Shown here piece after piece: positions 20,733-35,672 of a stretch of DNA of 64,000 bases. The number at the start of each line of letters is the position of its first letter. Positions within the stretch are counted from its first letter, which is position 1. Source of the stretch: Candidatus Woesebacteria bacterium. GTDB lineage: Bacteria; Patescibacteriota; Microgenomatia; UBA1400; PJMF01. The stretch covers positions 4,138 through 68,137 of the forward strand of contig JAGNLY010000003.1 of NCBI GenBank assembly GCA_017999345.1, read 5' to 3'. Position numbers and translations under genes: made by a program. The notes beneath the pieces are model-generated. The model worked only from the letters and a program-made list of their open reading frames with translations, was not told the origin of the DNA and ran no database searches.

Positions 20733-20826
20733 ATTTTTTAAATTTGTATTTATATAAATTTAAAAAGCATGGTTACTGTGTTTACGTCAACTAAATTTTA
20801 ATCTAATTAAACGTTTTTTATATCTT

Positions 20827-20998: not shown

Positions 20999-21116
20999 TT
21001 CTGGTCTCTAGAGCGAGGTGGAACCAACTCTTCCCTTCCCGAACAGAGTCTTGAAACTCCTCAGCGCTGACAATAGTGCACGGGCAACTGTGTGTGAAGA
21101 TAGGTCGAGGCCAGAA
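20999..21116 (+). rRNA. rrf: 5S ribosomal RNA
   Basis: ttctggtc...ccgaacagag...ggccagaa. Terminal helix extends into the flanks (acgtttaattctgg / ccagaattaagcgt) and is followed by a T9 run. Confidence 0.88.
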
Positions 21117-21156
21117 TTAAGCGTTTTTTTTGTGCCTTTTTATATATAATAGGATC

Positions 21157-22080: not shown

Positions 22081-23146
22081 TTTTTTGTAGTAAAGGATAA
22101 ACTTGATCGTTAAGATTATTTAGTGGCATAGCATTGAACCATGGTGTTTTATCAGAAGATTTTATCTTGTAAATAATGCTATGAGCCAAGTACTTATACA
22201 TAAGTCTTTTATCTTTTTCTCCAGTAAAATGGATGACTTTAACCTTCGTAGGAATTAATTCATTATGAAAATTTGTCCTAAAAAAAGGTGCTAAAGTGTA
22301 ACTACTTGGTAGTTTTTTTGTTGGAAGAACATTAAAAAACCATGCATGAAGAGATTGTTCGATGACGCTTTTGCCAAAGCAAAAATCCAGCACTGCAATT
22401 TTTGATCTTGGAAAATCATTGGTATCAGTTAGTAGTCGATCATCCATTTGATCAATCATTGCTAGAAATATTTGATTAATTTTTGACAATAAGTTTTTCT
22501 TAGTAAGCAGGTGTTTTTGAATTGCGACCATGCCGGAGTTTACATTAGAGAAATTGTGTTTCTTTTTTAGCAATCTATCCATTTCTAATTTTGATAAAAC
22601 AGAGTAATTTCTGCAGTCAAATGAAAAGCGAGAAAACTTTGTTTCATTTTCTATCCAGTCAATAAGCTCCTTAGGTTTTTTTAAGAATAGAATATCGCAA
22701 TCAAATATTAAATACTTGCTTTTTTTTGAGTGAATAATGGGAGATAAAAACTTTCCCGCAGCCCATGTTTTATTGCTCCACTCGATTAGTTCAGGGAATT
22801 TTTTAATGCTCGATAAGTGAAAGTTATGTTTCAATAATTCAATTTGTGGGAAAAACATTTTAAAAAGATAGATTTGCCACTTTTTAAGTGATCCATCATT
22901 AATAATATGGATTTTAGTGTTATAGAAGAATAAAAAACTTGAAATACCGGCTATTGATACCCAAAAATATCTTCCTGGAACAGGCACGTATATATCACAA
23001 TCAGGTTTATGCAAAGACGTATCTTTGTTTTTTATAAGTTCAAAGAAGGCGCGTATGTTCACTAAATATTCATAGAATATTATGACAACTTTATTTCTTA
23101 TTTTTTTTAAAAATGTTTTCATTAATTTTTTTGTATTATATCCCAA
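22073..23146 (-). CDS. putative glycosyltransferase, GT8-like
   Basis: GT8-style motif order: IFDCDILF (DxD), NVNSGMVAI, VIHFTGEKDK. An alternative start ATG at 23122 would overlap the upstream stop as TAATG. Confidence 0.45.
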   Translation of the reverse strand: MGYNTKKLMKTFLKKIRNKVVIIFYEYLVNIRAFFELIKNKDTSLHKPDCDIYVPVPGRYFWVSIAGISSFLFFYNTKIHIINDGSLKKWQIYLFKMFFPQIELLKHNFHLSSIKKFPELIEWSNKTWAAGKFLSPIIHSKKSKYLIFDCDILFLKKPKELIDWIENETKFSRFSFDCRNYSVLSKLEMDRLLKKKHNFSNVNSGMVAIQKHLLTKKNLLSKINQIFLAMIDQMDDRLLTDTNDFPRSKIAVLDFCFGKSVIEQSLHAWFFNVLPTKKLPSSYTLAPFFRTNFHNELIPTKVKVIHFTGEKDKRLMYKYLAHSIIYKIKSSDKTPWFNAMPLNNLNDQVYPLLQKII

Positions 23147-23943
23147 GTTATTTCTAATGCTTTTTTAATTTTAGTGAATGAATATTTTAAGCGATTACTT
23201 GCTAAAACCGGGACGTTTTCTCCATTTTCTAGTTTTACAACATTGCAACTAATTTTTAATTTGTCACAAATATTGTTTGCAAAATCTGAAAGGGTTACTG
23301 ATTCTTTACCAGTTAAATGTATAATTCCGTTTATATTTTCCAACATTAACTTTTCAATAATTATATTGAAATCGTCAATAAAAATCGGCTTTCTTTTTAT
23401 TTTCGAATTAAGGTGAATAGTTTTATTATTTATAAGTGTTCCAATAAAACCATTATTTTTGTGAATAGGATCGTAACCATAGATCATGTCAGATCTGATA
23501 ATTAAATGGTCTGAAATTTTCTTAATAAGATTTTCAGATTCGATTTTTAGTTTTCCATACAAGTTGAAAGGACTACTAATATCTTGCTCAAAATATTTGT
23601 TTTTTTTGCCATCAAAAACATATATTGAAGACAAAAAAATTACTTTTATATTCAGTTTATTAATAGTTTTTAGAATAGGAACTAGTGAGGAAACATTAAT
23701 TTTAAATGCATCATCAAGATTTTTCTCTACTTCATTTGGTCTAGCGATTCCAGCAGCAAAGATAATAACATTTGGCTTAATGGAATTAATGATATTTATA
23801 GTTTCTTTTCGATTTTTTAAATCAAGCTTTATAAATGGAGGAAGGCTGTGTCTTGAAGTACCAAAAACATGATGCCTTTTCTCAAGAAATGTATATAGTT
23901 TATTTCCTAAAAAGCCAGATGCACCAATAATTAATATTTTCAT
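23122..23943 (-). CDS. SDR-family sugar-nucleotide reductase/epimerase (RmlD-like)
   Basis: MKILIIGASGFLGNKLY Rossmann motif. SSIYVFDG....Y.E......P.N.YGKLK resembles dTDP-4-dehydrorhamnose reductase. Start at ATG 23943. Confidence 0.65.
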   Translation of the reverse strand: MKILIIGASGFLGNKLYTFLEKRHHVFGTSRHSLPPFIKLDLKNRKETINIINSIKPNVIIFAAGIARPNEVEKNLDDAFKINVSSLVPILKTINKLNIKVIFLSSIYVFDGKKNKYFEQDISSPFNLYGKLKIESENLIKKISDHLIIRSDMIYGYDPIHKNNGFIGTLINNKTIHLNSKIKRKPIFIDDFNIIIEKLMLENINGIIHLTGKESVTLSDFANNICDKLKISCNVVKLENGENVPVLASNRLKYSFTKIKKALEITWDIIQKN

Positions 23944-24023
23944 AAAAAGGTATTTATGGATTATATCAAAGTACAGCTTAAATATGTTAATCATGTTAAA
24001 ATCAGAGTTGGAGTTTTTTTATA

Positions 24024-25220
24024 ATGACTTTTAATAAAAATACAAAAAGAATCATATTTGTAACTGACTATGTCAAAGTTGGCGGAAGCAGAACATTTCT
24101 AAATGACCTGTTGAAAGAATGTTATAAAGCCAAGATATATGTTGAGGTCATATTTTTTTCAAAAGAGATAGTTGATGATGAAGAATATAAATCTAGTAGA
24201 TTTAATTTTATAAAGATTCCATCTCTTAATTATCTATTTACTTTTTATAGGTTTTTTTCGCTAATTAGTTGGATTTCAAAATTTAAAAAGCACAATACAG
24301 TCATATTAACTGATTTATTTTTTCCTGCTTTTTCATTAATTTTAATAAAGAAATTTTTTAGAATAAAAACTAATATCGTTTATCAATTTCATGGATTTGA
24401 TTCTTATGAACAACAGAGCAGAGCAATTTATGAAAATATTTATAAAAGCAAACACTATTTATTTTCACAGATATTAAAAAAAATAATTGAAAGGTTTGTA
24501 TTAAGAAATGTAGACGAAGTTATCTGTTTTAGTAATTATTCAAAAAGCTTAGTTATGAAAGAGCTTAAAAATTTTAAAAATATTTCTGTTATCAATCCTG
24601 GATATTCATCAATATTTGGTCTTAATAAATTTACAAAAAAAGAATACAGACAACAAATTGGTTTATCAAATGAAGCAAAGGTAATTTTATATATTGGTAG
24701 AATAGAACCCAGAAAAGGCATTTTTAATTTTTTTAATGAGTTGGAAAAGAATCTAGATTTTTCAAAAAAATATACAATATTATTTGTTAGTTCATTTACT
24801 GATAGCTCTTTTGCAATAGATTTATTTAAATTATCTAAAAAGACAAATTATATATCAAACATATTATTTATTAATAATCCTCCTAGAAAAGATATTGATA
24901 AATTTTATTATGCTAGTGATTTAATGATTTTGCCTTCTTTAGATCTCGAAACATTTGGTTTTGTAACGCTTGAGGCAATGGCTTGTGATTTGCCCACTGT
25001 TGGTTTTGATATTGGAGCAAATGAAGATTTAATTAACAAAAATCTGCTTGTGGATAGGAAATCTGGTATGAAGGGGATTATAGATAAAATTGATTATTAT
25101 TTTTCTCTGGAAAATAAGAAAAAGAGATTGATTATTAGTTCACTAAAAAATAAAACAAATGATTACACATACAAAAATTACGTTAGCAATCTTGACAAAT
25201 ATTTTACCAAATTAAGCTAG
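24024..25220 (+). CDS. glycosyltransferase family 4 (GT-B, Glycos_transf_1)
   Basis: C-terminal ...PSLDLETFGFVTLEAMACDLPTVGFDIGANEDLI, with the E-x7-E-type motif. Confidence 0.8.
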   Translation: MTFNKNTKRIIFVTDYVKVGGSRTFLNDLLKECYKAKIYVEVIFFSKEIVDDEEYKSSRFNFIKIPSLNYLFTFYRFFSLISWISKFKKHNTVILTDLFFPAFSLILIKKFFRIKTNIVYQFHGFDSYEQQSRAIYENIYKSKHYLFSQILKKIIERFVLRNVDEVICFSNYSKSLVMKELKNFKNISVINPGYSSIFGLNKFTKKEYRQQIGLSNEAKVILYIGRIEPRKGIFNFFNELEKNLDFSKKYTILFVSSFTDSSFAIDLFKLSKKTNYISNILFINNPPRKDIDKFYYASDLMILPSLDLETFGFVTLEAMACDLPTVGFDIGANEDLINKNLLVDRKSGMKGIIDKIDYYFSLENKKKRLIISSLKNKTNDYTYKNYVSNLDKYFTKLS

Positions 25221-25244
25221 TTTGATTGTGTTAGAATAACCTTT

Positions 25245-26015
25245 ATGCCTCGATATTTTTCAAAGAATTGGATAGATTTTATTTGGGTCATGACTCATAA
25301 AGAGATCAAGGCCAGGTACAAAAGAGCATTTTTGGGATTCTTATGGATATTTTTAAATCCTTTGCTTCAAATGATTGTCATAGGTTACATATTTCAATTT
25401 TTTGTTCCTGTAAAAATTGATCATTATTTTAATTTTTTATTTTCTGGATTACTTCCATGGAATTTTATTTCATATACAGTATTAAAATGCACTCCGTTAA
25501 TTTACAACGAGAGATCATTAATACAAAAAGCAAAATTTCCTAGAGAAGCCTTAGTACTTTCTATTATATTTTCCAACTTATTTCATTTTCTTATATCCAT
25601 CGGAATTTTGCTTATATTTACAATTTTATTTGGTTCGATTTCAATAGCCAAAATTGTATTGCTAATATTTGCAATTTTTATTATGACAATATTCGTAACT
25701 GGTTTATCATTTTTGTTATCTGCATTATATGTAAAGTATCGAGATATTAAATTTATTGTTAATGCTTTAGTTCCACTTTGGTTTTATGCAACTCCAGTTG
25801 TATACACAAGATCTTTATTAGCGGGCTGGCTTGATAAAATAATTCAATTTAATCCTATTACTGGAATAATTGAGTTATTTCAATATATTTTTACTGATGC
25901 CGTTGCTGTTAACCAATTGGTTTTAGGAAAATCTATAATTATTTCAGTCGTTGTTTTTATTCTTGGTATTTATGTTTTTTCACGGGAATCAGAATATTTT
26001 GATGATTGGCTATAA
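25245..26015 (+). CDS. polysaccharide/teichoic-acid ABC exporter permease (ABC-2, Wzm/TagG-like)
   Basis: 256 aa, 6 TM. N-terminal KEIKARYKRAFLGFLWIFLNPLLQM is typical of ABC-2 type glycan exporters. Confidence 0.85.
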   Translation: MPRYFSKNWIDFIWVMTHKEIKARYKRAFLGFLWIFLNPLLQMIVIGYIFQFFVPVKIDHYFNFLFSGLLPWNFISYTVLKCTPLIYNERSLIQKAKFPREALVLSIIFSNLFHFLISIGILLIFTILFGSISIAKIVLLIFAIFIMTIFVTGLSFLLSALYVKYRDIKFIVNALVPLWFYATPVVYTRSLLAGWLDKIIQFNPITGIIELFQYIFTDAVAVNQLVLGKSIIISVVVFILGIYVFSRESEYFDDWL

Positions 26016-26017
26016 AT

Positions 26018-26752
26018 ATGAAAAAAAGCAAAAGTATCGTAATTGATGCTAAAAATATATCAAAAAAATATTTATTGAGACATGAAAAACCAACATTTGT
26101 GGAAAACCTGCTTTATAAATCAAAAACTGAATACCATACGGCATTGGACGATGTAACTTTATCTATTTTTAAAGGGGACAGACTAGGAATAATTGGAAAA
26201 AATGGTTCAGGAAAAACAACTTTGCTTAAGCTTTTCTCAGGCATCACAAGGCAGCAAACGGGCAAGCTATCTATCCATGGTAAAGTTGTATCATTAATCG
26301 ACTTAGAAGCAGGTTTTCATCCAGATTTATCTGGTGAAGATAATATTTTTTTACAAGGATTAATTCTTGGAATGAGTGTAAATGAATTATCTGAAAAAAA
26401 GAGTGAAATTATTCAATTTGCAGAGATTGGTAAGTTTATTGATGCTCCAGTATATACGTATTCAAGTGGAATGAAATTGAGATTAGGTTTTTCTATAGCA
26501 ATTCACTCTAATCCAGATATATTGCTTTTAGATGAAAATTTTGCAGTTGGTGACGAAGCTTTTAGAAATAAAATTCGTATTAAATTTAAGGAGTTTCGTA
26601 AGAATAATATAACATTAATATTGGTGAGTCACTGGATTGAGGAGCTAGAAAAAAGTTGCAATAAATTTTTGTGGTTAGATAATGGAAGAGTTGTTGCTTA
26701 TGGTGGTAAGAAAGTTATTGAAAAATATAAAAAGTCATTTTTGAACAAATAA
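26018..26752 (+). CDS. polysaccharide/teichoic-acid ABC exporter ATPase (Wzt/TagH-like, short form)
   Basis: Walker A GKNGSGKTTL, signature YSSGMKLRLGFS, Walker B ILLLDENFAVGD. ATG 26018 lies just after the permease stop. Confidence 0.88.
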   Translation: MKKSKSIVIDAKNISKKYLLRHEKPTFVENLLYKSKTEYHTALDDVTLSIFKGDRLGIIGKNGSGKTTLLKLFSGITRQQTGKLSIHGKVVSLIDLEAGFHPDLSGEDNIFLQGLILGMSVNELSEKKSEIIQFAEIGKFIDAPVYTYSSGMKLRLGFSIAIHSNPDILLLDENFAVGDEAFRNKIRIKFKEFRKNNITLILVSHWIEELEKSCNKFLWLDNGRVVAYGGKKVIEKYKKSFLNK

Positions 26753-27628
26753 TAAATTAAATCTTTGTTTTAAGTAAATTAGTAAACCTAACATAAGTCC
26801 AGTAACTTTTATTAAAAATTCTTTAGCAATAAAATTATAGTAAATATTTTTGAATTCATTTTTTATTAGATCCTTAGAAAATTTGTTCCCATTAAATAAT
26901 AATGAAGAATAACACGCGGTACCGCCAAGAGAGTAACTCAAATAAAGATTTCTGTTTTCTTTAGTACTAATCCATCTATTATGGTAAATTACCATGAATG
27001 GATTGTAGGCAATTTTATGTCCTAGCAAAAGACATTTATTGGCTATTTCAGCATCTTCAGCTGATCTACCTATCGATCCAGGTCCTAGCAAAGTTTCAAA
27101 TTTAATTACTTGGTTAAAAATATTTTTTCTAAAAGACATGTTATTGCCAAAGCCTATTTCTTCCCAATGCTTGCAAGGATTTTTTGTATAAGAAATGTAA
27201 TCATTTTCTTTAGAGAAAGTTGCCGGACAAATCATGTCTTTTTTCTTTGTTAAAATGAATGGTTTTGTATTACCAAAAACAATACTTTCTTTTTCATTTT
27301 TTTGAAAAAATTCGCTTATTTGTTTAATCCATCTTATATCAATAACACAGTCATCATCTGTGAAAGCAAGTATATTTCCTTTTGCTCTAGAAATTGCATC
27401 ATTCAAGCTTCTTGATTTACCTACATAATTAACTTTGTAGTATTTAACAATAGGAGAATTCTTTTTTTGAACTATTTTCTTTGTTTTATCAGATTTGCTT
27501 TGATCAATAACAATTATTTCAAACGGTAACACCTCAGATTTTAGAAGTGAGTAAATGCATCTGTATAGATCTTTTGGTCTATCTCTTGTGGCAATAATTA
27601 CTGAAACATTTAAAACAGATTTAGCCAT
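26735..27628 (-). CDS. glycosyltransferase family 2
   Basis: VSVIIATRDRPKDLYRCIYSLL...IIVIDQS...AFTDDDC. Confidence 0.8.
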   Translation of the reverse strand: MAKSVLNVSVIIATRDRPKDLYRCIYSLLKSEVLPFEIIVIDQSKSDKTKKIVQKKNSPIVKYYKVNYVGKSRSLNDAISRAKGNILAFTDDDCVIDIRWIKQISEFFQKNEKESIVFGNTKPFILTKKKDMICPATFSKENDYISYTKNPCKHWEEIGFGNNMSFRKNIFNQVIKFETLLGPGSIGRSAEDAEIANKCLLLGHKIAYNPFMVIYHNRWISTKENRNLYLSYSLGGTACYSSLLFNGNKFSKDLIKNEFKNIYYNFIAKEFLIKVTGLMLGLLIYLKQRFNLLFVQK

Positions 27629-28590
27629 ATTAAAGTAGCTTTTTTTAGATTTTTAAAGTATTCATTTTTTGGAAAGTTTACTTTTTTAATTAATTCTCGA
27701 TAGCTCCCAACAACATCTTTTGAAGTTAGTTTTACTTTTTCAACTTCGAGCCAAATTTTTTCATTGATTTCAATACCGGCGGCTTCTTTAATCAGATTTT
27801 TAAATGGATCTGAAGCTTTTCTATGTTCTATAAAAGGTGCGCCATTAATTACAGACATTCCTAGATGATCCATAATTTTTTTTGAAAAGATTCCTGCCCA
27901 AATATCGTCAAATCTATCGTAACCCCATTTTTTGCCATTTTTATCTTCACCCATAAGAGGAAAGTACATTAATGGAGTAATTTCTCGATTAAAAGCTAAA
28001 TTCATTGAGCACATGGGATAATAACTATTGGTTGGAATTATTTGTAAAAAGTGCTCTGCAAATTTGGCTTCGAACTGAAGATTTTGCAAATGAGTCGGGC
28101 CGTCAAAATCCAGTGCGTTCGTCCAGAGTCCATGGCTAATCATCACAGGAGCTTGGTTGCGGTTTAAATATGGCATTCCACGAGTGTACATATATCTTGA
28201 ATCAGGATAAGTATTAGTCCATTTTTGAGGTGTTTTAAGATTTAGGTTTTGTTCGTGAAGCTTGATTAGCTGGTGGTTTTTGACAGGGTAGCAGTCGTCA
28301 TCAATGGTAACTATTTTTTTTGCGCCCATTTTGTAGGCTTGTAAAAATCCATAATTACGAATCGCAGAAACTTTTCTTGGAATAATCCAGCTGTTATCTT
28401 TTAGATCTTCATCTATTTCTTTCCATGAGTAGTGAAATGTTTTTTTGCCAACTTTTGGAATTTTTACGGATTTTTCAGGTTTATCTTCGCAAACAATAAT
28501 AGTTGTGTTTTGAAACTGTTTTTTCCAGTCTAGAAGGAAGTCAAGATTGCGGATAGTTGGGATGACTATAAAGGTTTTTTCCATTGTCAT
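27610..28590 (-). CDS. reversibly-glycosylated-polypeptide family protein (GT75; UDP-arabinopyranose-mutase-like)
   Basis: Matches recalled plant RGP motifs in order: IVIPTIRNLDFL, TIDDDC, SHGLW.N..D.D.PT.L, PMCSMNLAFNRE, DDIWAG, HRKASDPFKNL.KE. Confidence 0.75.
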   Translation of the reverse strand: MTMEKTFIVIPTIRNLDFLLDWKKQFQNTTIIVCEDKPEKSVKIPKVGKKTFHYSWKEIDEDLKDNSWIIPRKVSAIRNYGFLQAYKMGAKKIVTIDDDCYPVKNHQLIKLHEQNLNLKTPQKWTNTYPDSRYMYTRGMPYLNRNQAPVMISHGLWTNALDFDGPTHLQNLQFEAKFAEHFLQIIPTNSYYPMCSMNLAFNREITPLMYFPLMGEDKNGKKWGYDRFDDIWAGIFSKKIMDHLGMSVINGAPFIEHRKASDPFKNLIKEAAGIEINEKIWLEVEKVKLTSKDVVGSYRELIKKVNFPKNEYFKNLKKATLIWLNLF

Positions 28591-28631
28591 ATATTAACAG
28601 CTATTGTTCTATTACGCCAATGATATCTAGC

Positions 28632-29813
28632 TCAAATTATATCGCTAATAGCCTCAACTTTATTTTCCCAAGAGTTGTCAATAGCAAGCAATTGCTCTTT
28701 TTTTTGCAATTCTTTTGGCCATGGTTTTTTTAATAAGGATTTAATATGTATTTCCCATTCTTTCGCAGTATCACCAATTTTAATTAGATTTTTGAATTTT
28801 GTATGCTTAAGTTCTTCAATTGGAGTACTAATTACTGGCTTTTTCATATAAAAATACTCAAAAAGTTTCATTGGATAGCAGAAACGGTTAAAATCATAGG
28901 AGATATCATAAGGTATTACGCAGATGTCTAGTTGTTTTATTATTGAGCCAATTTGATCTTTAGGTTGCGAATCAAACCACATGCAGTTTTCAAACTTTAT
29001 AAGTTCTTCAAATCTTTTTAAGAAATGATGTTTTTTATTAACTATAATGTTCGGTTCATGATGCTTTGGTCCTACAAAAATAAAATTCCATTGTTCATTT
29101 TGGCTTATTAATTCTTTTAAAAGCTCAAAATCTAGTCTTTGGCTTATTTGACCAATGAAGCCAATCAGAGGCTTATCATTTTTTAGCGTGATCTTGCTTT
29201 TGCTTTGGTTATTTTCAAATTTATCGTAACTAAATCCTTGAGGAACGACAGTCATTGGTTTATTTGTCAGAATTTTAAATTTTTTTTCTAGAATGTATGA
29301 ATTTACTGTAATAACATCAGATTTTAATAGCAAAAGTTGTTTCTGAATTGTAAGATTTTTTTGTTCTTGATAGTTCGGTGAGGTATGAAAGTCAACAATG
29401 TCATCAATAACTTTCCAAAAAGGTAGTTTAACTTTAATTAACTGGACTAGTTGAGGGAAAAACATCCATATTAAATGATTTTTCGCACTAGGGTATTTTA
29501 GCTTTAGTATAAGTTGAATTGCAACTGAATAAATTATGGAGTTAATATCTCCGATAAGTTTGATTCTTTTAAATGGGATTAGATCAATGGGATACAAGTA
29601 GCAAATATTATCTATTTTTTTTGAAAAAGTTAGTTTTTGCTGAGTTGCGAATTTTATGAAAATTTCTTTAATTGATAGAGATTGCGTATGATATAGTATG
29701 AATACTCTATTGCTGTTATTTTTAGCCAATATATTTGCAGTCTGTTCAAGATAATCACAGACTTGGGCTTGATGAGAGATATTTGGAATTAGTATTACTG
29801 AGTTTTTAATCAT
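28632..29813 (-). CDS. glycosyltransferase (GT-B fold, GT4/TuaH-like)
   Basis: 393 aa. LIGFIGQISQRLDFELL...FIFVGP... architecture. Start codon shares 2 nt with the divergent ATG at 29812. Confidence 0.5.
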   Translation of the reverse strand: MIKNSVILIPNISHQAQVCDYLEQTANILAKNNSNRVFILYHTQSLSIKEIFIKFATQQKLTFSKKIDNICYLYPIDLIPFKRIKLIGDINSIIYSVAIQLILKLKYPSAKNHLIWMFFPQLVQLIKVKLPFWKVIDDIVDFHTSPNYQEQKNLTIQKQLLLLKSDVITVNSYILEKKFKILTNKPMTVVPQGFSYDKFENNQSKSKITLKNDKPLIGFIGQISQRLDFELLKELISQNEQWNFIFVGPKHHEPNIIVNKKHHFLKRFEELIKFENCMWFDSQPKDQIGSIIKQLDICVIPYDISYDFNRFCYPMKLFEYFYMKKPVISTPIEELKHTKFKNLIKIGDTAKEWEIHIKSLLKKPWPKELQKKEQLLAIDNSWENKVEAISDII

Positions 29814-31365
29814 GCGCTTATACGATTATAATCTTTCTAAATTGCTTCATATCATGCAGAAAGATAAAATTTTAACAATATTTGCTAAATTTACTAAAGA
29901 TTTAGATTCTGCTGCTATTATATCAGTTAATGTTTATTTTTTAGTTTCGCTTGCAATTTCTTCAACAAAGATATCTTTTTTATTTAGTTTTATTTTTTTT
30001 GCTTTTCTAGTTTATTATTACTCATTTTATAAAGCTATGGTTTATAGCATGCTACCTTTATTATATTTTGGATTGGGTCAAATCCACTCTTTTATTGCAG
30101 TTCCTGCTTCAGCAGTTTTTAGCCCTCAATATTGGGAGGGCAGGCAGTTAGTTTTTTCTTTATCACCTTTTTTTATCATTTTTTTATCTGGTTTAATATT
30201 ATTAATTTTTTTGTGGAGAAAAATTAATTTGAGATTTTTAATGCATGAAAAAATGATACTAATATTATTCGCGATGTTTGGACTCTCTTTTGTCGGATCC
30301 GTAATGCCTTTCATAAGTTTTGCTTTTACAATGAACGATCTCCTATTGATTGTTTGGGGAATTTATTTGGTTTTAGCTACAAAAAATATCTCCAAATTAA
30401 AAGTAAAAAAAATATTACTTACTTTGGCAATAATTTTTGTAGCAATTTTATTGCAAAATTCACTGCTTGTTTTTGGACAAATAATTAAGGGCGGTGCTTT
30501 AGGATTAGCGATTGAAAGAACGGAAGTTGCACCGGTTTTTGGACTCGGGGCCGATGAAAGGGCGGGAGTTTTTAGGCCATTTGGTTTTAATATTCATCCT
30601 AACGGTCTTGCCAACGAAGTTATTTTAATTGGAATAAGTATTCTGATTATGCTCCAATATTTATTTGAAAAATTTACCAAAAAAAATAAAACATTTAATA
30701 TTTTAGTCATCGCTGTCTTTTTAGTATCATTATTAATAATAATACTAACTCTTAGTAGAGCAGCGTTTGTTGCAATCTTTTTATCTTTATTATTTTTTGC
30801 GCATAGACACCCAAAACAGCTTAAAAAAATTGAAAACTTGCAACAGAGAATAGCAAGCAAATCTAACCCTTGGTTGAAAGTTGTTATATTTATTGTGTTG
30901 GCAGTCTTAACTTTTAAGTTAACAAGTAGGCTATTTGATACCATCTATTCATTTAGCGAGTTAGGTGGTGTTTCTACCAGAATTGAGCAGTATAAAGAGG
31001 CATTTGAAGTTTTTAAGAATTATCCGTTATTTGGAGTAGGAGTTGGTATGTTTATGCCAGCTTCATATCAATTATTTCCTGATGGAATAATGAGATATTT
31101 TCCAGAACCAGTTCATAATGGTTTTTTACTGTTTTTAGTTGAAAGAGGTGCATTTGGTGCGATAACTTATTTGATATTTTTAATATATTTTTATTCAGAA
31201 ATTAGTAAGTTAAAACTCAGGAAGCTTACTAAGACTATGATATACTTAGGCATTATTTCTAGCTTCGTAATGATGTTATTTCATCCGCAAAATAACTTTT
31301 TAAGTTTTTTAATTGTCTTTATTTTATTTATTATTCATTATGAAAAAACAAATATTAAAATATAA
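29812..31365 (+). CDS. O-antigen ligase/polymerase family (Wzy_C) membrane protein
   Basis: 517 aa, at least 10 TM. LTLSRAAFVAIFLSLLFF plus the loop HNGFLLFLVERGAFGAITY is typical of Wzy_C. A possible later start is ATG 29854. Confidence 0.7.
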   Translation: MRLYDYNLSKLLHIMQKDKILTIFAKFTKDLDSAAIISVNVYFLVSLAISSTKISFLFSFIFFAFLVYYYSFYKAMVYSMLPLLYFGLGQIHSFIAVPASAVFSPQYWEGRQLVFSLSPFFIIFLSGLILLIFLWRKINLRFLMHEKMILILFAMFGLSFVGSVMPFISFAFTMNDLLLIVWGIYLVLATKNISKLKVKKILLTLAIIFVAILLQNSLLVFGQIIKGGALGLAIERTEVAPVFGLGADERAGVFRPFGFNIHPNGLANEVILIGISILIMLQYLFEKFTKKNKTFNILVIAVFLVSLLIIILTLSRAAFVAIFLSLLFFAHRHPKQLKKIENLQQRIASKSNPWLKVVIFIVLAVLTFKLTSRLFDTIYSFSELGGVSTRIEQYKEAFEVFKNYPLFGVGVGMFMPASYQLFPDGIMRYFPEPVHNGFLLFLVERGAFGAITYLIFLIYFYSEISKLKLRKLTKTMIYLGIISSFVMMLFHPQNNFLSFLIVFILFIIHYEKTNIKI

Positions 31366-32227
31366 AAAACTTTTGATTACAAAATTTAAATTTGTAGATA
31401 TTTTTGGTTTATTACTTATTTTTTTTGTTATCTCTTTGTCATATTTGCTTCTTAATAGAAAAGTCGAGTACTTAAATATAACTTTGAGGTTATTTAATTA
31501 CGAAGGCTCTGAATATGGTATAGGGACTAATAAGCCTCGTCCATGGTATGTAGAGCAAATTAAACCTGGAAAAAAACTAGTTGGTGGTTTTGGTCAAACT
31601 TTAATTGAAGTTACAGATGTTTACAACTATGAAGGTCCATCAACATTGCAAGATACTTATGTAACCTTAAAAATTAGAGCTGCTCAAAATAAAACTAGCA
31701 AACAGTATATTTATAATGGAAGTCCATTATTGATTCATGATGTTAGGTCATTTAAAGTCCAAGACTTGTTAATAATTGGAGAAATAATTGATATTGAAGA
31801 TAGTGAAATTAATATCAAAAAGGAAACAAAGAAATTTTTAATTTCTTTAGACTTATTTAGTCAGTTAAGTAATAATATTAATAGAAGCGATGTAGTTATA
31901 GAAGGTGTAGAAGACTATATTGCAAATTCCATAGAAAAAGGAATGAAAATTAAAGATAGTAACAATAATGTAGTTGTCGAAATTATAGATATGACAACTT
32001 CACCTGGCATAAGAAGTTGGGTTGGTCCAAATGGATATGTTGAAACAGTAGACCCTAATCGTACAAAAGTAAAATTAAAAGTGGAAATTGTGGGAGAAGA
32101 GATCAACAACTATTACTACTATCGTCGTGAAGCCCCATTTATTGTTGGCGGCGGTTTGCATCTTATATTTAATAATACGTCTGTGGTTGGGACTATAACA
32201 GATGTAAAACCATTGTCGGAAAATTAA
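31340..32227 (+). CDS. membrane-anchored hypothetical protein (DUF4330-like)
   Basis: N-terminal FKFVDIFGLLLIFFVISLSYLLL anchor, then a beta-rich ectodomain. Start at ATG 31340 (MKKQILKY). Confidence 0.45.
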   Translation: MKKQILKYKKLLITKFKFVDIFGLLLIFFVISLSYLLLNRKVEYLNITLRLFNYEGSEYGIGTNKPRPWYVEQIKPGKKLVGGFGQTLIEVTDVYNYEGPSTLQDTYVTLKIRAAQNKTSKQYIYNGSPLLIHDVRSFKVQDLLIIGEIIDIEDSEINIKKETKKFLISLDLFSQLSNNINRSDVVIEGVEDYIANSIEKGMKIKDSNNNVVVEIIDMTTSPGIRSWVGPNGYVETVDPNRTKVKLKVEIVGEEINNYYYYRREAPFIVGGGLHLIFNNTSVVGTITDVKPLSEN

Positions 32228-33078
32228 TGAAAAGATTCCCAAAAATATCAATTGTTACTCCGTCTTTCAATCAGGGAAATTTTTTAGAGAGAACTATTCT
32301 CTCTGTTATAGAACAAAATTACCCCAATTTTGAATATGTAATTATTGACGGTGGATCTAATGACGGAAGTCAAAAGATTATAAAAAAATATAAAAAATAT
32401 TTGAAATATTGGGAAAGTAAGCCAGATAGAGGCCAATCGCATGCGATTAACAAGGGTTTTGCTAAAACTGATGGCGAGATAATGTTTTGGATTAATAGTG
32501 ATGATGTTTTGAGGCCAGGAGCATTGCACTTGGTAGCTAGTATTTTTAATAAGTTTAGCGAGATTAATTGGCTAACTAGTTTGCCATCAACAGTGAATGA
32601 TGAAGGTTATCAGCTTTATTTAGCTCAGCCACCTTTATATATAAATAATTTTATTAAAAGAGGGTGGTACACTCGAAAATTTATGGGATTTATTATGCAA
32701 GAGGGCACTTTTTGGAGAAGGACTTTGTGGAATAAAGCAGGCGGAAAGTTAGAAGAGGTACCTTACTCAATGGATCTTAAACTTTGGCAATCATTTGCAA
32801 AATATGAAAAATTATATTGTGTGCATGCTTGTTTGTCTTCATACAGACTTAATCCAAATCGTAAAAACAATGATGGCCATAAAAAATATTATAAAGAAAT
32901 TAATGCTTGGGTTCCTGAAAATATTAGTTTATTAGGAAAAATCATCTGGCGCCAAATTGCAAAATTTGCAAATCATTCTAAATTAAATCCAGGAATATAT
33001 TATGATCAAAAAGAGTTGAAGTGGTATTTTAGGAAAAACATATTTAATTCTCGCAGTTTTAAATTGCTGAAAATATGA
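32227..33078 (+). CDS. glycosyltransferase family 2
   Basis: ISIVTPSFNQGNFLERTILSVIEQNYPNFEYVIIDGGSNDGS...WINSDD. TAATG overlap with the upstream gene. Confidence 0.85.
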   Translation: MKRFPKISIVTPSFNQGNFLERTILSVIEQNYPNFEYVIIDGGSNDGSQKIIKKYKKYLKYWESKPDRGQSHAINKGFAKTDGEIMFWINSDDVLRPGALHLVASIFNKFSEINWLTSLPSTVNDEGYQLYLAQPPLYINNFIKRGWYTRKFMGFIMQEGTFWRRTLWNKAGGKLEEVPYSMDLKLWQSFAKYEKLYCVHACLSSYRLNPNRKNNDGHKKYYKEINAWVPENISLLGKIIWRQIAKFANHSKLNPGIYYDQKELKWYFRKNIFNSRSFKLLKI

Positions 33079-35672
33079 AAAAAATAATCAACATTATAAT
33101 TATTTTTGTTGTTTTAACCTTCTTGTATTTTTTTAATGGTAGAAACAAAGAAGGCATTAATTGGGAATTTTATATTGATAAACAAACTGGAGCAAACTCA
33201 GTTCTTAATATTGGAAGGAATTTAACTTTCGATAATGACTTTATATATTTTAGTGATGGAGCTGGCACTATTTATTCTATTCTCCAAAAAGATGGTTCTA
33301 TTAATTGGACGAGCAAGTTAGCTAATCACACGCCATTTGAAATTACTCAGGATGATACTTCGATTTACATTGCTAGCTTTGATAAACATATTTATAAATT
33401 AGATAAAAGCAATGGGTACATCGAATGGAGCTATGTTATAGAAAGCCAATATTGGCCAGATACGGAAGTAATACTTGATGAAAATGATAAGTATGTATTT
33501 TTTGCTGATCGCGGAGGTAATTTATATGCTTTAGATAAAAATTCTGGCAACGAAGTATGGAGAAAAGAGTTTCAAGCTATTGATAATACTGTTGAATTTA
33601 AAGAAGGCTCCATTCACTTTGGTTTTTTGACACAAAATGAAGATGAACTTATTGTAGATCATTTTCCAAGCAAAACTATTTATAGGGTTAACAAAACAGA
33701 TGGATTAATTCTTGAAGAAAGCGAACCATCTTTAGATTTTAAACCTGTAAAAACAAAAGAAAACTTATTTTTTGATCAAGATGATCTTGATATAAAAAGG
33801 AATGTTGCTAACCAGCCAGCTCTTAGTTTATTTGATAAAGATGATAATTTAATTTGGGTCTATCAAACTAAAAGAAAAATTAACTTTAACGAAATATATC
33901 AATATAAAAATAGGGCTTATTTTTTAGATATTAATAATCAGATATTGTCATCAATAATAATTAGTTCTGATCCCTTGGAAGAAGAAAAAATTGTTCAAAC
34001 AAACTTTAAAGTTGAGGAAAATTTTTCTTCCCATGGTCCTTTTAATGTTTATCCTAATCCACATATTCGTTTTGAAAAAGAAAGTTCTATTACTGAAGGA
34101 ATCAAACAAAAAATTAAGGGAATATCTAATTATTTTATGTACATTTTAGATAACTTTAAAGAACTTTTTGATTTCAAAATTAATACTGAAGAGAAATATG
34201 ATTACACAGAGTTTAGTATTTTGCATCAAGATAATTTTTATAATAATAAGTTTACAGAAGTTAAAATTAATGGTGAATTTGAAAATAAATTAACAAATGA
34301 AAAACTAAAAATAAGCGGTTTTTATTATGATAAAAATACTTGGAAGCTTAGAGCAAAGCTAAATGAGGGTGAGTGGATTTACAATATCAAGGTTATCACC
34401 CCGTTTTGGATTAAGAAATTTAAAGGTTCTTTGCAAGTGAATAAGGAAAAAGAACCAGAATTATTAGTTAAAAATGGCGAATTTGTAGTTGGCGAGAATC
34501 TTTTTCTCCCGTTGGGTTTACAAGACGCAATAGTTGATTTGAGTGATGATGGAAATAGGTTAAATATGATGGGACATGCTTTTTCAAATAAACCATTGGA
34601 AGATAATTATGAATATTTGCCATTTAAAGATTATCTTGATCTTTACAAAAATGAATCATCGATGAATATTTTTCGTTACGGTCCAGATAATTGGGCTCCT
34701 TCAATTTGGAAAAACCTCAATGATTCTGAACAATTTGAAATGGATATAAATGGCAATTATGAGGGTGATTTTATTACTCAAGAGGCCAAAAAGAGAGGTT
34801 ATAGAGTAATGATGAGTGTGTTCGCATTCTATCCTCCATATTCTTCTAAGGAAGAATTTTCAAAAAAATCAAACCGTCTGGTTTTGGAAAAATATTTGGA
34901 CTATGTCATAGCACGTTATGGGGCTTCAGTAGATATTTGGGAACTTGCAAATGAAGCGATTCCTACATTAGAGTGGCAAAATTTTATTAGTGATTACTTA
35001 ATAAATAATGATCCATATAAGCACCCAATCACTATTAATTTGGAAGATTCAAGATTGGATAATTCAGATCTTCTATCAATTCATTATGTGGCAGAAGAAC
35101 CTCTTGATAATAAAAATTTTGTTTATATGATTGAAAATTTTAATACTAAACATGATCAAGATATGACTAAGATAATTAGTGAATTTGGTTTTATAAATGC
35201 CAATCATTTTCCTGGTTCAGCTGAGTGGCAACGTAAATTTGCGTGGGCTTTTTCATTTCAAAAAATTGGTATTATTTTTTGGAACACCGGATTTGGTTAT
35301 TTTGAAAATATTGAAAATCAAAACAGTAATATTTATCTTGGACCTGAAGAAAGATTTTACTTAAAAAATTTAAGAAATTTTTTACCTGATATGAGTGCAG
35401 ACTCCATTAGTAAATTATATTTTGAGAATGAAAATAAAATAGCAGTATTCAGCTTAAGTGATAATAATTTTGATTTATATTATTTGTTGAATTTGGATCA
35501 ATCTAATAAAAGTCAATTTTTTGAGGTTGATGCAACAAGCAGCGGTGTTGCTACTTTTATTAGTCCCAAAACAGGAAATAAGTTACAAGAATTTCCAGTT
35601 AAAGAAGGAAAACAACAACTAAGCTTACCTGATTTCAATGATGATCTAGCAATTAAGATTAGTTATGACTGA
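33075..35672 (+). CDS. secreted/anchored PQQ-like beta-propeller + Ig-like + GH5-like (TIM-barrel glycoside hydrolase) protein
   Basis: 865 aa. N-terminal anchor, PQQ-type repeats (GTIYSILQKDGSINW, HIYKLDKSNGYIEW, GNLYALDKNSGNEVW). C-terminal VDIWELANE resembles the GH5 acid/base NE(P) motif. Confidence 0.55.
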   Translation: MKKIINIIIIFVVLTFLYFFNGRNKEGINWEFYIDKQTGANSVLNIGRNLTFDNDFIYFSDGAGTIYSILQKDGSINWTSKLANHTPFEITQDDTSIYIASFDKHIYKLDKSNGYIEWSYVIESQYWPDTEVILDENDKYVFFADRGGNLYALDKNSGNEVWRKEFQAIDNTVEFKEGSIHFGFLTQNEDELIVDHFPSKTIYRVNKTDGLILEESEPSLDFKPVKTKENLFFDQDDLDIKRNVANQPALSLFDKDDNLIWVYQTKRKINFNEIYQYKNRAYFLDINNQILSSIIISSDPLEEEKIVQTNFKVEENFSSHGPFNVYPNPHIRFEKESSITEGIKQKIKGISNYFMYILDNFKELFDFKINTEEKYDYTEFSILHQDNFYNNKFTEVKINGEFENKLTNEKLKISGFYYDKNTWKLRAKLNEGEWIYNIKVITPFWIKKFKGSLQVNKEKEPELLVKNGEFVVGENLFLPLGLQDAIVDLSDDGNRLNMMGHAFSNKPLEDNYEYLPFKDYLDLYKNESSMNIFRYGPDNWAPSIWKNLNDSEQFEMDINGNYEGDFITQEAKKRGYRVMMSVFAFYPPYSSKEEFSKKSNRLVLEKYLDYVIARYGASVDIWELANEAIPTLEWQNFISDYLINNDPYKHPITINLEDSRLDNSDLLSIHYVAEEPLDNKNFVYMIENFNTKHDQDMTKIISEFGFINANHFPGSAEWQRKFAWAFSFQKIGIIFWNTGFGYFENIENQNSNIYLGPEERFYLKNLRNFLPDMSADSISKLYFENENKIAVFSLSDNNFDLYYLLNLDQSNKSQFFEVDATSSGVATFISPKTGNKLQEFPVKEGKQQLSLPDFNDDLAIKISYD

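What the first reader, a model, noticed from the sequence alone, without database searches (positions are those of the whole stretch)
27610..28590. Plant-type RGP (GT75 / UDP-L-arabinopyranose mutase family) homolog in a bacterial glycan locus
Collinear matches to the plant RGP motifs I recall are striking for a family best known from plants: IVIPTIRNLDFL, TIDDDC, SHGLW.N..D.D.PT.L, PMC.MNLAF.RE, DD.WAG, H.KAS.PF.NL.KE. In plants these enzymes interconvert UDP-Arap and UDP-Araf and self-glycosylate on an Arg. Here the protein could supply a furanose donor or act as a self-priming transferase.
Basis: partly seen in the sequence, partly recalled or inferred. Interest (0 to 1): 0.55.

Follow-up and report, generated by a model that had tools for sequence, protein, structure and literature searches.

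The report
Flavin-free sugar-ring mutase in Woesebacteria
This gene from an uncultured, tiny-celled bacterium (Woesebacteria) encodes an intact member of the manganese-dependent enzyme family that plants use to turn six-membered sugar rings into five-membered ones, and it sits inside a cell-surface sugar-polymer gene cluster; the family assignment is solid, but which sugar it acts on is still unknown.

Summary
It matches Pfam RGP (PF03214) over its full length at 170 bits against a cut-off of 23.8. An AlphaFold model (pLDDT 87) superposes on rice UAM2 (TM 0.83) and on the bacterial GT75 mutase MtdL (TM 0.73). All residues shown by mutagenesis to be essential in MtdL or AtRGP2 are present: DDD97-99, Arg137 (the nucleophilic, autoglycosylated Arg), Asp161, Arg226, Asp229 and His256.

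The gene is soluble and lies between a TuaH-like GT4 and a GT2 whose start codon overlaps its end. The surrounding ~27-kb cluster is an ABC-transporter-type envelope glycan locus. The protein is identical to GenBank MBP7700824.1, annotated "hypothetical protein", Candidatus Woesebacteria.

Homologs are common in Patescibacteria and occur in many other phyla. They form a prokaryotic group separate from both plants and MtdL.

The substrate is unresolved. The specificity positions are a hybrid: Ser75 and Lys258 as in plants, Ser195 as in MtdL, and Val74 unique. No UDP-xylose/arabinose genes are nearby. A genuine GDP-mannose 3,5-epimerase lies 10 kb away, but that linkage is not conserved. One clade-mate is translationally coupled to a GalE-like epimerase.

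Verdict: a new, uncharacterised member of a known family, of moderate interest.

The parts
27610..28590 (-). GT75 / RGP-family NDP-sugar pyranose-furanose mutase homolog. It is 326 aa; GenBank starts it at Met3, giving 324 aa. It is soluble, with no TM segment. Catalytic residues: D97-D98-D99, R137, D161, R226, D229, H256.
   Evidence: ORF. Pfam RGP 170 bits. PDB sequence hits. Residue map to MtdL. AF2 model plus Foldseek, TM 0.83 / 0.73. Identity to MBP7700824.1. No TM segment.
28632..29813 (-). GT4 glycosyltransferase, TuaH-like, immediately upstream of the mutase on the same strand with a 41-nt gap. It is a candidate user of the furanosyl donor.
   Evidence: Pfam Glycos_transf_1. NCBIfam TuaH 100.8 bits, below the cut-off. 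The same GT4 lies directly upstream of RGP in 11 of 16 clade-A loci.
26735..27628 (-). GT2 glycosyltransferase with a C-terminal TM-like segment. Its ATG lies inside the last codons of the mutase gene (19-nt overlap), so translational coupling is likely. It is a candidate furanosyltransferase.
   Evidence: Pfam GT2 85 bits. The overlap was read from the sequence. The same arrangement occurs in L001 and L003. Only generic GT2 hits in the PDB.
25245..26752 (+). ABC-2 type glycan exporter: permease 25245..26015 and ATPase 26006..26752, convergent with the GT4-mutase-GT2 operon.
   Evidence: Pfam ABC2_membrane and ABC_tran. Orthologs lie within 10 kb of RGP in 22-23 of 79 loci.
29812..31365 (+). 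Wzy_C (O-antigen ligase/polymerase-like) membrane protein with 12 TM-like segments, divergent from the GT4 gene.
   Evidence: Pfam Wzy_C. TM scan. A Wzy_C gene sits in the same relative position in other clade-A loci.
36844..37629 (-). WecG/TagA/CpsF-family glycosyltransferase (linkage-unit type enzyme).
   Evidence: Pfam 146 bits. NCBIfam superfamily hit above its cut-off.
38424..39416 (+). GDP-mannose 3',5'-epimerase (GME) homolog. It would make GDP-L-galactose / GDP-L-gulose and is a possible, unproven supplier of the mutase substrate.
   Evidence: PDB 2c59 (Arabidopsis GME), E 1.7e-99, 336 bits, full length. The next family (UXS) reaches only 101 bits. The SSAC, YGxEK and GGREK motifs are kept.
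23122..23994 (-). RmlD-like NAD(P)-dependent sugar reductase. It is the only other nucleotide-sugar-modifying enzyme in the cluster.
   Evidence: Pfam RmlD_sub_bind 125 bits. NCBIfam rmlD 115.7 bits, below the 224 cut-off.
47685..48308 (-). Bac_transf initiating phosphoglycosyl transferase. It marks the far end of the ~27-kb glycan cluster (21130..48308).
   Evidence: Pfam Bac_transf 160.7 bits. Orthologs lie directly next to RGP in 7 other loci.
21130..22080 (+). GT2 glycosyltransferase at the near end of the cluster, just after the 5S rRNA.
   Evidence: Pfam GT2.

Best explanation
The gene encodes a catalytically competent, soluble, Mn2+-dependent and flavin-independent NDP-sugar pyranose-to-furanose mutase of glycosyltransferase family 75.

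By analogy with MtdL and plant UAMs, the proposed mechanism is as follows. Asp99 and His256 hold Mn2+ on the diphosphate. Arg226 binds the beta-phosphate. Arg137, activated by Asp229 and positioned by Asp161, attacks C1 to form a transient Arg-sugar adduct, which is the 'reversible glycosylation'. The ring opens and recloses through O4, and the NDP-furanose is released.

The thermodynamically disfavoured furanose donor is consumed at once by the glycosyltransferases co-transcribed with the mutase: the GT4 upstream and the translationally coupled, membrane-anchored GT2 downstream. These build a lipid-linked envelope glycan that the adjacent ABC-2 transporter exports.

The substrate is not established. 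My leaning is a UDP-sugar of galacto configuration, UDP-D-Galp more likely than UDP-L-Arap. In that case the enzyme would be a functional substitute for the flavoenzyme UGM/Glf.

What is shown: family membership, fold, conservation of catalytic residues, and operon and cluster context. What is inferred: mutase activity, the identity of the nucleotide sugar, and which GT uses the product.
For: - **Family:** Pfam RGP at 170 bits over the full length.
- **Fold:** the AF2 model (pLDDT 86.9, pTM 0.90) matches only GT75 structures well: rice UAM2 at TM 0.83 and MtdL at TM 0.73. The next hits fall below TM 0.47.
- **Catalytic residues:** every residue whose mutation abolishes activity in MtdL or AtRGP2 (PMC9937993) is present, namely D97/D98/D99, R137, D161, R226, D229 and H256. 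These are invariant in 70/70 locus homologs and present in 252 of 271 family members. Rice UAM2, which I take to be the non-catalytic class-2 type, lacks three of them.
- **Operon context:** GT4, a 41-nt gap, the mutase, then a 19-nt overlap into the GT2. GT4-RGP adjacency is conserved in 11 of 16 clade-A loci, and the RGP-GT2 overlap recurs in L001 and L003.
- **Cluster context:** ABC-2 exporter, TagA, Bac_transf, Wzy_C and multiple GTs. The same partners recur around homologs in 79 genomes.
- **Fusions:** other family members are fused to GT-like domains.
- **Leaning to a plant-like UDP-Gal/Ara substrate:**
  - Identity is 38% to AtRGP1 against 27% to MtdL.
  - Pro11, Ser75 and Lys258 equal the plant residues. 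AtRGP2 S91D and MtdL D87S are both inactive.
  - In clade-mate L030 a GalE-like SDR overlaps the RGP start by 14 nt.
  - Most clade-A loci carry no dedicated NDP-sugar enzyme, which is consistent with a housekeeping precursor.
  - No Glf was detected near any of the 79 loci.
Against: - No biochemical data exist for any member of this prokaryotic clade.
- The specificity positions do not fully match plants. Position 74 is Val where plants have Asp. The first 'DGD' motif reads EDK. Position 195 is Ser as in MtdL, not the plant Gly.
- No GalE, UXS, UGD or UDP-xylose 4-epimerase is present in the 64-kb window.
- The only substrate-forming enzyme in the cluster is a GDP-mannose 3,5-epimerase, which points to a GDP-sugar instead.
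- The AtRGP1 sequence used for comparison was recalled from memory, although it passed 8 published numbering checkpoints.
- The NJ tree is crude.
Confidence: 0.68

Rival explanations
1. It is a GDP-L-galactopyranose mutase like MtdL. The GME at 38424..39416 converts GDP-mannose to GDP-L-galactose. The GT75 enzyme contracts it to GDP-L-galactofuranose, and L-Galf enters the envelope glycan.
For: - A genuine GME (336 bits to Arabidopsis GME) lies in the same glycan cluster.
- GME orthologs also lie within 4-7 kb of RGP in L006, L014 and L074.
- MtdL is a characterised bacterial GT75 enzyme that performs exactly this reaction (PMC9937993).
- Position 74 is Val, not the plant Asp whose introduction (S86D) blocks GDP binding in MtdL.
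- Ser195 equals MtdL Ser228.
Against: - GME is 10 kb away, in a different operon, next to TagA.
- Only 4 of about 35 Patescibacteria RGP loci have GME within 10 kb.
- None of 80 loci with close GME relatives contains an RGP homolog, whereas 13 contain TagA.
- The window protein lacks MtdL's Thr13, Asn42, Ser86, Asp87 and Arg289, and D87S inactivates MtdL.
- A different clade of the family (clade C) does carry the MtdL-like [ST]-D / N / R signature.
- L-Gal has the opposite ring chirality to the plant substrates whose residues this protein shares.
Confidence: 0.2
2. It is specifically a UDP-L-arabinopyranose mutase, as in plants, supplying UDP-L-Araf for an L-arabinofuranose-containing bacterial glycan.
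For: - It shows the highest similarity to plant class-1 UAM.
- Ser75 and Lys258 are shared with plants.
- A GalE-like 4-epimerase is coupled to RGP in L030. That enzyme could be a UDP-xylose 4-epimerase.
- JGI annotates homologs under this name.
Against: - The window has no UDP-glucose dehydrogenase, UDP-xylose synthase or UDP-xylose 4-epimerase.
- Only 1 UGD-type dehydrogenase was found near RGP across 79 loci.
- The plant DGD motif and Asp at position 74 are missing.
- From general knowledge, L-Araf is rare in bacterial envelope glycans whereas D-Galf is common.
Confidence: 0.12
3. It does not act as a mutase. Either it is a self-glycosylating primer or arginine glycosyltransferase (the old 'RGP' idea), or it is a non-catalytic scaffold like plant class-2 RGPs.
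For: GT75 enzymes do autoglycosylate on the conserved Arg, and R137 is present. Plant class-2 RGPs are non-catalytic partners.
Against: - All residues needed for mutase chemistry and Mn2+/NDP binding are intact. In the class-2 protein OsUAM2 three of them are lost (D111N, R257T, and His287 replaced).
- In characterised members the autoglycosylation is the covalent intermediate of the mutase cycle.
- There is no second RGP paralog in the window for it to partner with.
Confidence: 0.05

Closest known systems
Plant class-1 RGP / UDP-L-arabinopyranose mutase (AtRGP1-3, OsUAM1/3; GT75, Pfam PF03214)
   Same: The fold and domain length are the same, and identity is about 38%. The two share the collinear motifs (IPTIRNLDFL, TIDDDC, SHGLW, PMCxMNLAF, DDxWAG, HxKASxPF) and the same catalytic DDD, Arg, Asp, Arg, Asp and His. 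They also share Pro at the MtdL-T13 position, Ser at the AtRGP2-S91 position and Lys after the Mn-binding His.
   Different: This protein belongs to a separate prokaryotic clade. The first DGD motif reads EDK. Val replaces the plant Asp90, and Ser replaces Gly216. It is encoded in a bacterial ABC-transporter-type envelope glycan operon, not acting as a cytosolic/Golgi-associated enzyme. No UDP-Xyl/UDP-Ara pathway genes are nearby.
MtdL (A201A pathway, Marinactinospora) and Hyg20 (hygromycin A, Streptomyces): GDP-L-Galp / GDP-L-Fucp mutases, the only characterised bacterial GT75 enzymes (PMC9937993)
   Same: Both are bacterial and share the fold (TM 0.73). The Mn2+ ligands, nucleophilic Arg and general-base Asp are the same. 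Ser occurs at the S228 position. A GME, which makes GDP-L-galactose, is in the same cluster as this gene.
   Different: Identity is only 27%. This protein lacks Thr13, Asn42, Ser86, Asp87 and Arg289, the residues MtdL uses for guanine and L-fucose recognition. MtdL and Hyg20 work in antibiotic secondary metabolism, whereas this gene is in a primary cell-envelope locus conserved across a phylum-level radiation.
UDP-galactopyranose mutase (UGM/Glf), the FAD-dependent flavoenzyme
   Same: It is the probable functional analog. Glf makes a furanose nucleotide donor and is typically encoded next to furanosyltransferases and ABC exporters in bacterial glycan clusters. Plant GT75 enzymes can also convert UDP-Galp to UDP-Galf.
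   Different: The fold and cofactor are unrelated. GT75 is a GT-A fold using Mn2+ and an Arg nucleophile, with no flavin. No Glf was detected near any of the 79 RGP loci.

Membership tests
GT75 / Pfam RGP (PF03214) | Significant full-length match to the family HMM, above the curated gathering score | tested here: met
   170 bits against a cut-off of 23.8, E 1.1e-49, covering residues 6-324 of the protein and positions 6-335 of the 342-position model.
GT75 / Pfam RGP (PF03214) | GT-A Rossmann-like N-domain plus the GT75-specific core and C-terminal helical region | tested here: met
   AF2 model with pLDDT 86.9 and pTM 0.90. Foldseek gives 8cid at TM 0.83 and MtdL at TM 0.73. Generic GT-A folds score TM 0.47 or lower.
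GT75 / Pfam RGP (PF03214) | Central DxD (DDD) motif for Mn2+/NDP binding | tested here: met
   D97-D98-D99 align with MtdL D109-D111. The motif is invariant in 70/70 locus homologs.
GT75 / Pfam RGP (PF03214) | Conserved autoglycosylated / nucleophilic arginine (OsUAM1 R158, MtdL R159) | tested here: met
   R137 in YTRGMPY aligns with MtdL R159. It is invariant.
GT75 / Pfam RGP (PF03214) | Mn2+-ligand His, beta-phosphate Arg, general-base Asp and helper Asp (MtdL H287, R257, D260, D195) | tested here: met
   H256, R226, D229 and D161 are all present. The full catalytic set occurs in 252/271 homologs.
GT75 / Pfam RGP (PF03214) | Measured NDP-pyranose/furanose mutase and reversible autoglycosylation activity | not testable with these tools
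   This requires recombinant enzyme assays.
Plant class-1 UDP-L-arabinopyranose mutase subfamily | First DxD motif reads DGD (OsUAM1 position 52), and Asp occupies the position equivalent to MtdL Ser86 (UDP rather than GDP selection) | tested here: not met
   The window has E35-D36-K37 and Val74. The plant motifs are taken from PMC6861824 and PMC9937993.
Plant class-1 UDP-L-arabinopyranose mutase subfamily | Ser at AtRGP2 position 91 and Lys two residues after the Mn-binding His | tested here: met
   Ser75 and Lys258.
Plant class-1 UDP-L-arabinopyranose mutase subfamily | Groups phylogenetically with plant class-1 sequences | tested here: not met
   In the NJ tree the plant sequences, MtdL and the prokaryotic loci form three separate groups. 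The window falls in Patescibacteria clade A. The plant sequence was recalled from memory and checked at 8 published positions.
Plant class-1 UDP-L-arabinopyranose mutase subfamily | UDP-L-Arap supply (UGD, UXS, UDP-Xyl 4-epimerase) encoded in the genome or neighbourhood | tested here: inconclusive
   None is found in the 64-kb window. The rest of the genome could not be examined.
MtdL/Hyg20-type GDP-L-Gal/L-Fuc mutase | Guanine- and L-fucose-binding residues Thr13, Asn42, Ser86, Asp87 and Arg289 | tested here: not met
   The window has Pro11, Lys37, Val74, Ser75 and Lys258. These MtdL residues do occur in clade C of the family.
MtdL/Hyg20-type GDP-L-Gal/L-Fuc mutase | Genetic linkage to a GDP-L-galactose or GDP-L-fucose supply | tested here: inconclusive
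   GME is present 10 kb away in the same cluster, and in 3 further RGP loci. However, 0 of 80 GME loci contain RGP.

The most novel reading that the evidence does not exclude
Patescibacteria (CPR) and several other uncultured phyla may make the furanose building blocks of their cell envelope with a flavin-independent, Mn2+-dependent GT75 mutase instead of the flavoenzyme UGM. The Patescibacteria clade carries a unique Val74-Ser75 / Ser195 / Lys258 specificity signature. It may therefore act on a nucleotide sugar that no characterised GT75 enzyme uses, or on UDP-Galp as its main physiological substrate. On this reading the prokaryotic group would also be the reservoir from which plant UAMs derive.
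Probability: 0.35. Interest if true: 0.6.

Novelty: new member of a known kind. Interest (0 to 1): 0.42.

Why it matters
The cell envelopes of Patescibacteria are essentially uncharacterised chemically. A conserved operon with an intact furanose-forming mutase predicts that their surface polymer contains a furanose residue (Galf, L-Araf or L-Galf). Furanoses are absent from mammals, are often immunogenic, and are useful as biomarkers or targets.

GenBank labels this protein, and most of its roughly 1,100 representative relatives, as 'hypothetical protein', so a correct family assignment improves annotation.

GT75 enzymes are also wanted as tools for making scarce NDP-furanoses (PMC9937993). 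A large, diverse prokaryotic clade with distinct specificity signatures is a ready source of new substrate ranges. Finally, a flavin-free route to furanoses would suit organisms with minimal cofactor biosynthesis.

Tried and rejected
1. **GME-to-GT75 pathway as the main explanation.** This looked attractive. I downgraded it because GME is in another operon 10 kb away. Only 3 further RGP loci have a GME, none of 80 GME loci has an RGP, and the MtdL specificity residues are absent.
2. **NCBIfam search of the RGP protein.** No model matched.
3. **Exact look-up of the 326-aa protein.** It was not on record because GenBank starts the protein at Met3. This was resolved through the P0032 cluster.
4. 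**Classifying the coupled GT2 as a known furanosyltransferase by PDB sequence search.** Only generic N-terminal GT2 hits appeared, such as chondroitin synthase and GalT1.
5. **Naming the RGP-adjacent SDRs of clade C.** NCBIfam places them between GalE and dTDP-glucose 4,6-dehydratase, all below the cut-offs, and the PDB hits are equally ambiguous.
6. **Promoter/terminator scan of 26000-31500.** It found fewer promoter-like sites than shuffled sequence, so it was uninformative.
7. **Obtaining plant sequences from the MtdL paper's supplement.** The alignment is held only as an image.
8. **Reading the PNAS 2017 MtdL paper.** It is not held.
9. **Literature searches.** Searches for CPR/prokaryotic GT75 work or a UAM2 structure paper found nothing relevant.
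10. **Non-catalytic class-2 reading.** I rejected it because all catalytic residues are present, unlike in OsUAM2.
Full report
**1. Observation**

The minus-strand ORF 27610..28590 encodes 326 aa.

- Pfam's RGP model (PF03214) matches at E 1.1e-49 and 170 bits, against a gathering score of 23.8. The match covers residues 6-324 of the protein and positions 6-335 of the 342-position model.
- NCBIfam has no model for the protein.
- By sequence, the only solved relatives are rice UAM2 (8cid, E 1e-24) and the bacterial GT75 mutase MtdL (7xpr/7yua, E 1.8e-13). With a 20-sequence profile these improve to E 3e-40 and 3e-19, with near full-length alignments.

**2. Source and annotation status**

The window is a bacterial chromosome segment. 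It carries tRNA-Ala, 23S and 5S rRNA at 17097..21116. GC is about 0.25-0.31 across the glycan cluster.

The exact 326-aa product is not on record. However, the protein is 100% identical over 324 aa to GenBank MBP7700824.1, 'hypothetical protein KA111_02060 [Candidatus Woesebacteria bacterium]', which starts at Met3. The public annotation therefore does not recognise the family. JGI labels some homologs 'reversibly glycosylated polypeptide / UDP-arabinopyranose mutase'.

**3. Fold and catalytic residues**

An AlphaFold2 model built on the 20-sequence alignment is confident (mean pLDDT 86.9, pTM 0.90). Foldseek against the PDB returns rice UAM2 (TM 0.83, E 1e-22) and six MtdL entries (TM 0.72-0.74, E ~1e-19). 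After those come only generic GT-A enzymes at TM 0.47 or lower.

The MtdL structure paper (PMC9937993) defines the functional residues by crystallography and mutagenesis:
- The DXD motif D109-D111, and His287, the Mn2+ ligand.
- Arg257, which binds the beta-phosphate.
- Arg159, the nucleophile, equivalent to the autoglycosylated Arg of plant UAMs.
- Asp260, the general base, and Asp195.

In a MAFFT alignment of 70 locus homologs, MtdL and OsUAM2, the window protein has D97-D98-D99, H256, R226, R137, D229 and D161 at these positions. All are invariant in the 70 full-length homologs, and the full set occurs in 252 of 271 family members retrieved.

Rice UAM2 has DDN, Thr in place of R257, and no His at the H287 position. 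This fits my recollection that it is the non-catalytic class-2 type. The window protein is therefore of the catalytically competent type. It has no TM segment.

**4. Genomic context**

The gene lies in a ~27-kb envelope-glycan cluster, 21130..48308. In order, the cluster contains:
- a GT2;
- an unknown gene and an RmlD-like reductase;
- a GT4;
- an ABC-2 permease and ATPase;
- the minus-strand operon GT4 (TuaH-like) - RGP - GT2;
- a Wzy_C protein;
- a GT2;
- a PQQ-propeller protein;
- a GT4;
- TagA/WecG;
- a methyltransferase;
- GME;
- three polytopic membrane proteins with no Pfam match;
- a GT2-YdjC fusion;
- a second Wzy_C protein;
- Bac_transf.

The upstream GT4 ends 41 nt before the RGP start. 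The downstream GT2 start codon lies inside the last RGP codons, giving a 19-nt overlap and indicating translational coupling.

The window contains no GalE, UDP-glucose dehydrogenase, UDP-xylose synthase, UDP-xylose 4-epimerase or Glf.

**5. Relatives and their neighbourhoods**

The word-index search finds 1,246 proteins at E<=1e-5. The best named hits are Pacebacteria, Woesebacteria, Gottesmanbacteria and Roizmanbacteria. An exhaustive profile search of 1.84 billion representatives finds 1,143 clusters at E<=1e-10.

A scan of GTDB species genomes gave 79 loci. They come from Patescibacteria, Chloroflexota, Dormibacterota, Planctomycetota, Acidobacteriota, Solirubrobacterales, Armatimonadota, Nitrospirae, Gemmatimonadota and one Thermoplasmata archaeon. 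Some MAG titles reading 'Pseudomonadales/Gammaproteobacteria' look like placeholder names.

Clustering all ORFs within +/-10 kb shows the following recurrent partners.

| Partner | Loci |
|---|---|
| ABC-2 permease / ATPase | 23 / 22 |
| TuaH-like GT4 | 19 (14 directly adjacent) |
| The window-type GT2 | 11 |
| TagA | 11 |
| DUF4330 | 11 |
| Bac_transf | 9 (7 adjacent) |
| Wzy_C | recurrent |
| GalE/RmlB-like SDR | 12 (6 adjacent) |
| DegT aminotransferase | 7 |
| Wzx | 4 |

In the window's own clade the order 'Wzy_C, DUF4330 ... GT4 > RGP > (GT2) ... ABC ATPase, permease' is conserved. GT4-RGP adjacency holds in 11 of 16 loci.

Some long family members fuse the RGP domain to GT-like domains: GT2_4, GT47/exostosin and DUF3405.

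All of this fits a donor-supplying mutase that works with glycosyltransferases in an ABC-transporter-dependent pathway.

**6. Which substrate?**

The paper identifies specificity positions. MtdL uses Thr13, Asn42 and Ser86 for guanine, and Asp87 for the sugar. Active plant RGPs have Pro, Asp, Asp and Ser at those positions. S86D abolishes GDP binding. D87S (MtdL) and S91D (AtRGP2) are both inactive.

The prokaryotic homologs split into three signature classes.

| Class | Members | Positions 74-75 | Position 195 | Position 258 |
|---|---|---|---|---|
| Clade A | Window type, ~76 proteins, Patescibacteria | Val-Ser | Ser | Lys |
| Clade B | Other Microgenomates | Asn-Ala | Ser | Lys |
| Clade C | Mostly non-CPR phyla | [Ser/Thr]-Asp, plus Asn37 | Gly | Arg |

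Clade C reproduces MtdL's Ser86-Asp87, Asn42 and Arg289. A further set of distant members carries the plant-like Asp-Ser / Gly signature.

The window protein is thus a hybrid:
- plant-like at Pro11, Ser75 and Lys258;
- MtdL-like at Ser195;
- unique at Val74.

It is 38% identical to AtRGP1, 28% to OsUAM2 and 27% to MtdL. In an NJ tree, plants, MtdL and the prokaryotic loci form three separate groups. The AtRGP1 sequence was recalled from memory. It agreed with all eight residue numbers published for AtRGP2/OsUAM1 (S91, R158, D182, G216, D246, F280, L283, Y287), and I treat it as supporting evidence only.

**7. The GME lead**

The SDR at 38424..39416 is a genuine GDP-mannose 3',5'-epimerase. It scores E 1.7e-99 and 336 bits against Arabidopsis GME over the full length, keeps the SSAC, YGxEK and GGREK motifs, and the next best family (UXS) reaches only 101 bits.

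GME makes GDP-L-galactose, and MtdL converts GDP-L-Galp to GDP-L-Galf, so this suggested a GME-to-GT75 pathway. The tests weaken that idea:
- GME orthologs (46-47% identity) lie within 10 kb of RGP in only three other loci (L006, L014, L074), always next to TagA rather than RGP.
- In the reverse test, none of 80 metagenomic loci with close GME relatives (35 of them 8 kb or longer) contains an RGP homolog, whereas 13 contain TagA.
- The MtdL specificity residues are missing.

Against this, in clade-mate L030 (65% identity) a GalE-like SDR overlaps the RGP start by 14 nt. That SDR's best NCBIfam hit is GalE at 182 bits, below the cut-off. Most clade-A loci carry no dedicated nucleotide-sugar enzyme at all, as expected if the precursor is a housekeeping sugar such as UDP-Gal.

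A filter for Rossmann-type neighbours across all 79 loci found further SDRs and one UGD-type dehydrogenase, but no Glf.

I therefore lean towards a UDP-sugar of galacto configuration. UDP-D-Galp is more likely than UDP-L-Arap. Plant UAMs accept both, and Galf is, from general knowledge, the common bacterial furanose. GDP-L-Gal remains the main rival.

**8. Mechanism**

This is inferred by homology to MtdL and plant UAMs:
1. Mn2+, held by Asp99 and His256, bridges the diphosphate.
2. Arg226 binds the beta-phosphate.
3. Arg137, deprotonated by Asp229 and oriented by Asp161, attacks C1 to give the covalent Arg-sugar adduct. This adduct is the 'reversible glycosylation'.
4. The ring opens and recloses through O4.
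5. The NDP rejoins to release the NDP-furanose.

From general knowledge of these mutases, the equilibrium strongly favours the pyranose. Tight coupling to the consuming transferases is therefore expected, and the operon structure provides it.

**9. Comparison with what is known, and novelty**

GT75 members in bacteria and archaea are already listed in CAZy. There were 9 bacterial and 43 archaeal among 161 entries in 2019 (PMC6861824), and 308 entries in total in 2023. Two actinomycete enzymes from antibiotic pathways are characterised.

I found no paper dealing with Patescibacteria or cell-envelope GT75 enzymes.

The finding is therefore a new, uncharacterised member (and clade) of a known family. 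It has a distinct specificity signature and a primary-metabolism, cell-envelope role. It is not a new kind of system.

**10. Verdict**

- Family membership is met on every testable criterion.
- Subfamily membership fails on defining specificity residues for both the plant UAM type and the MtdL type.
- Interest is moderate, at 0.42. The main open question is the substrate, and hence which furanose decorates the Patescibacteria envelope.

Noticed in passing
window 38424..39416 (+): This is a bona fide GDP-mannose 3',5'-epimerase, roughly 57% identical to Arabidopsis GME by my count of the alignment, in a Woesebacteria glycan cluster. It implies GDP-L-galactose or GDP-L-gulose is made for the envelope glycan. 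In 13 of 80 loci with close GME relatives, and in all 4 RGP loci that have GME, it sits beside or near a TagA/WecG-family transferase.
   Followed up: partly
window 39403..43790: Three consecutive ~480-490-aa ORFs have no Pfam or NCBIfam match and 7-10 TM-like segments each. The first overlaps the end of the GME gene. They may be uncharacterised membrane glycosyltransferases or polymerases.
   Followed up: partly
window 17097..21116: The rRNA locus reads tRNA-Ala, 23S, 5S, with protein-coding ORFs rather than a 16S gene upstream. No 16S was detected anywhere in the 64-kb window, so the 16S gene appears unlinked from the 23S.
   Followed up: no
window 3960..4033 (+): A tRNA-Ile with anticodon TAT (UAU), a type I recall being uncommon in bacteria, sits between an HlyD/MacB-type efflux operon and a block of large ORFs.
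   Followed up: no
window 4087..10911 (-): Three large ORFs (800, 693 and 742 aa) have almost no Pfam matches, apart from a weak bMG10 hit. They lie in a block of noticeably higher GC (0.37-0.43) than the rest of the window (0.25-0.35).
   Followed up: no
L038 5025..6044 (+) and 8873..9919 (-): One Paceibacterota locus carries two divergent RGP paralogs, with TS/G/R and NA/G/R signatures, each near its own SDR. This suggests two different furanose donors in one glycan cluster.
   Followed up: no
P0181, P0192, P0184/P0201/P0216/P0222/P0229 (family representatives): Several unusual architectures turned up. One RGP is interrupted by an intein with a LAGLIDADG domain. One carries an N-terminal HNH domain. 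Several long proteins, which I take to be eukaryote-like from their very high Pfam RGP scores (about 390-460 bits), fuse RGP to GT2_4, GT47/exostosin or DUF3405 domains.
   Followed up: partly
L051, L052, L063, L069 and other clade C loci: Clade C homologs (Chloroflexota, Planctomycetota, Dormibacterota and others) carry MtdL's specificity residues ([ST]-D, Asn, Arg). They often sit directly after a GalE/RmlB-like SDR and near DegT aminotransferases and Wzx. They may be mutases for GDP- or 6-deoxy-sugars in Wzx/Wzy-type pathways.
   Followed up: partly
window 33075..35672 (+): An 865-aa protein with an N-terminal signal/TM-like segment, a PQQ/BamB-like beta-propeller and a DUF5060 domain is embedded in the glycan cluster. 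Its role is unknown.
   Followed up: no
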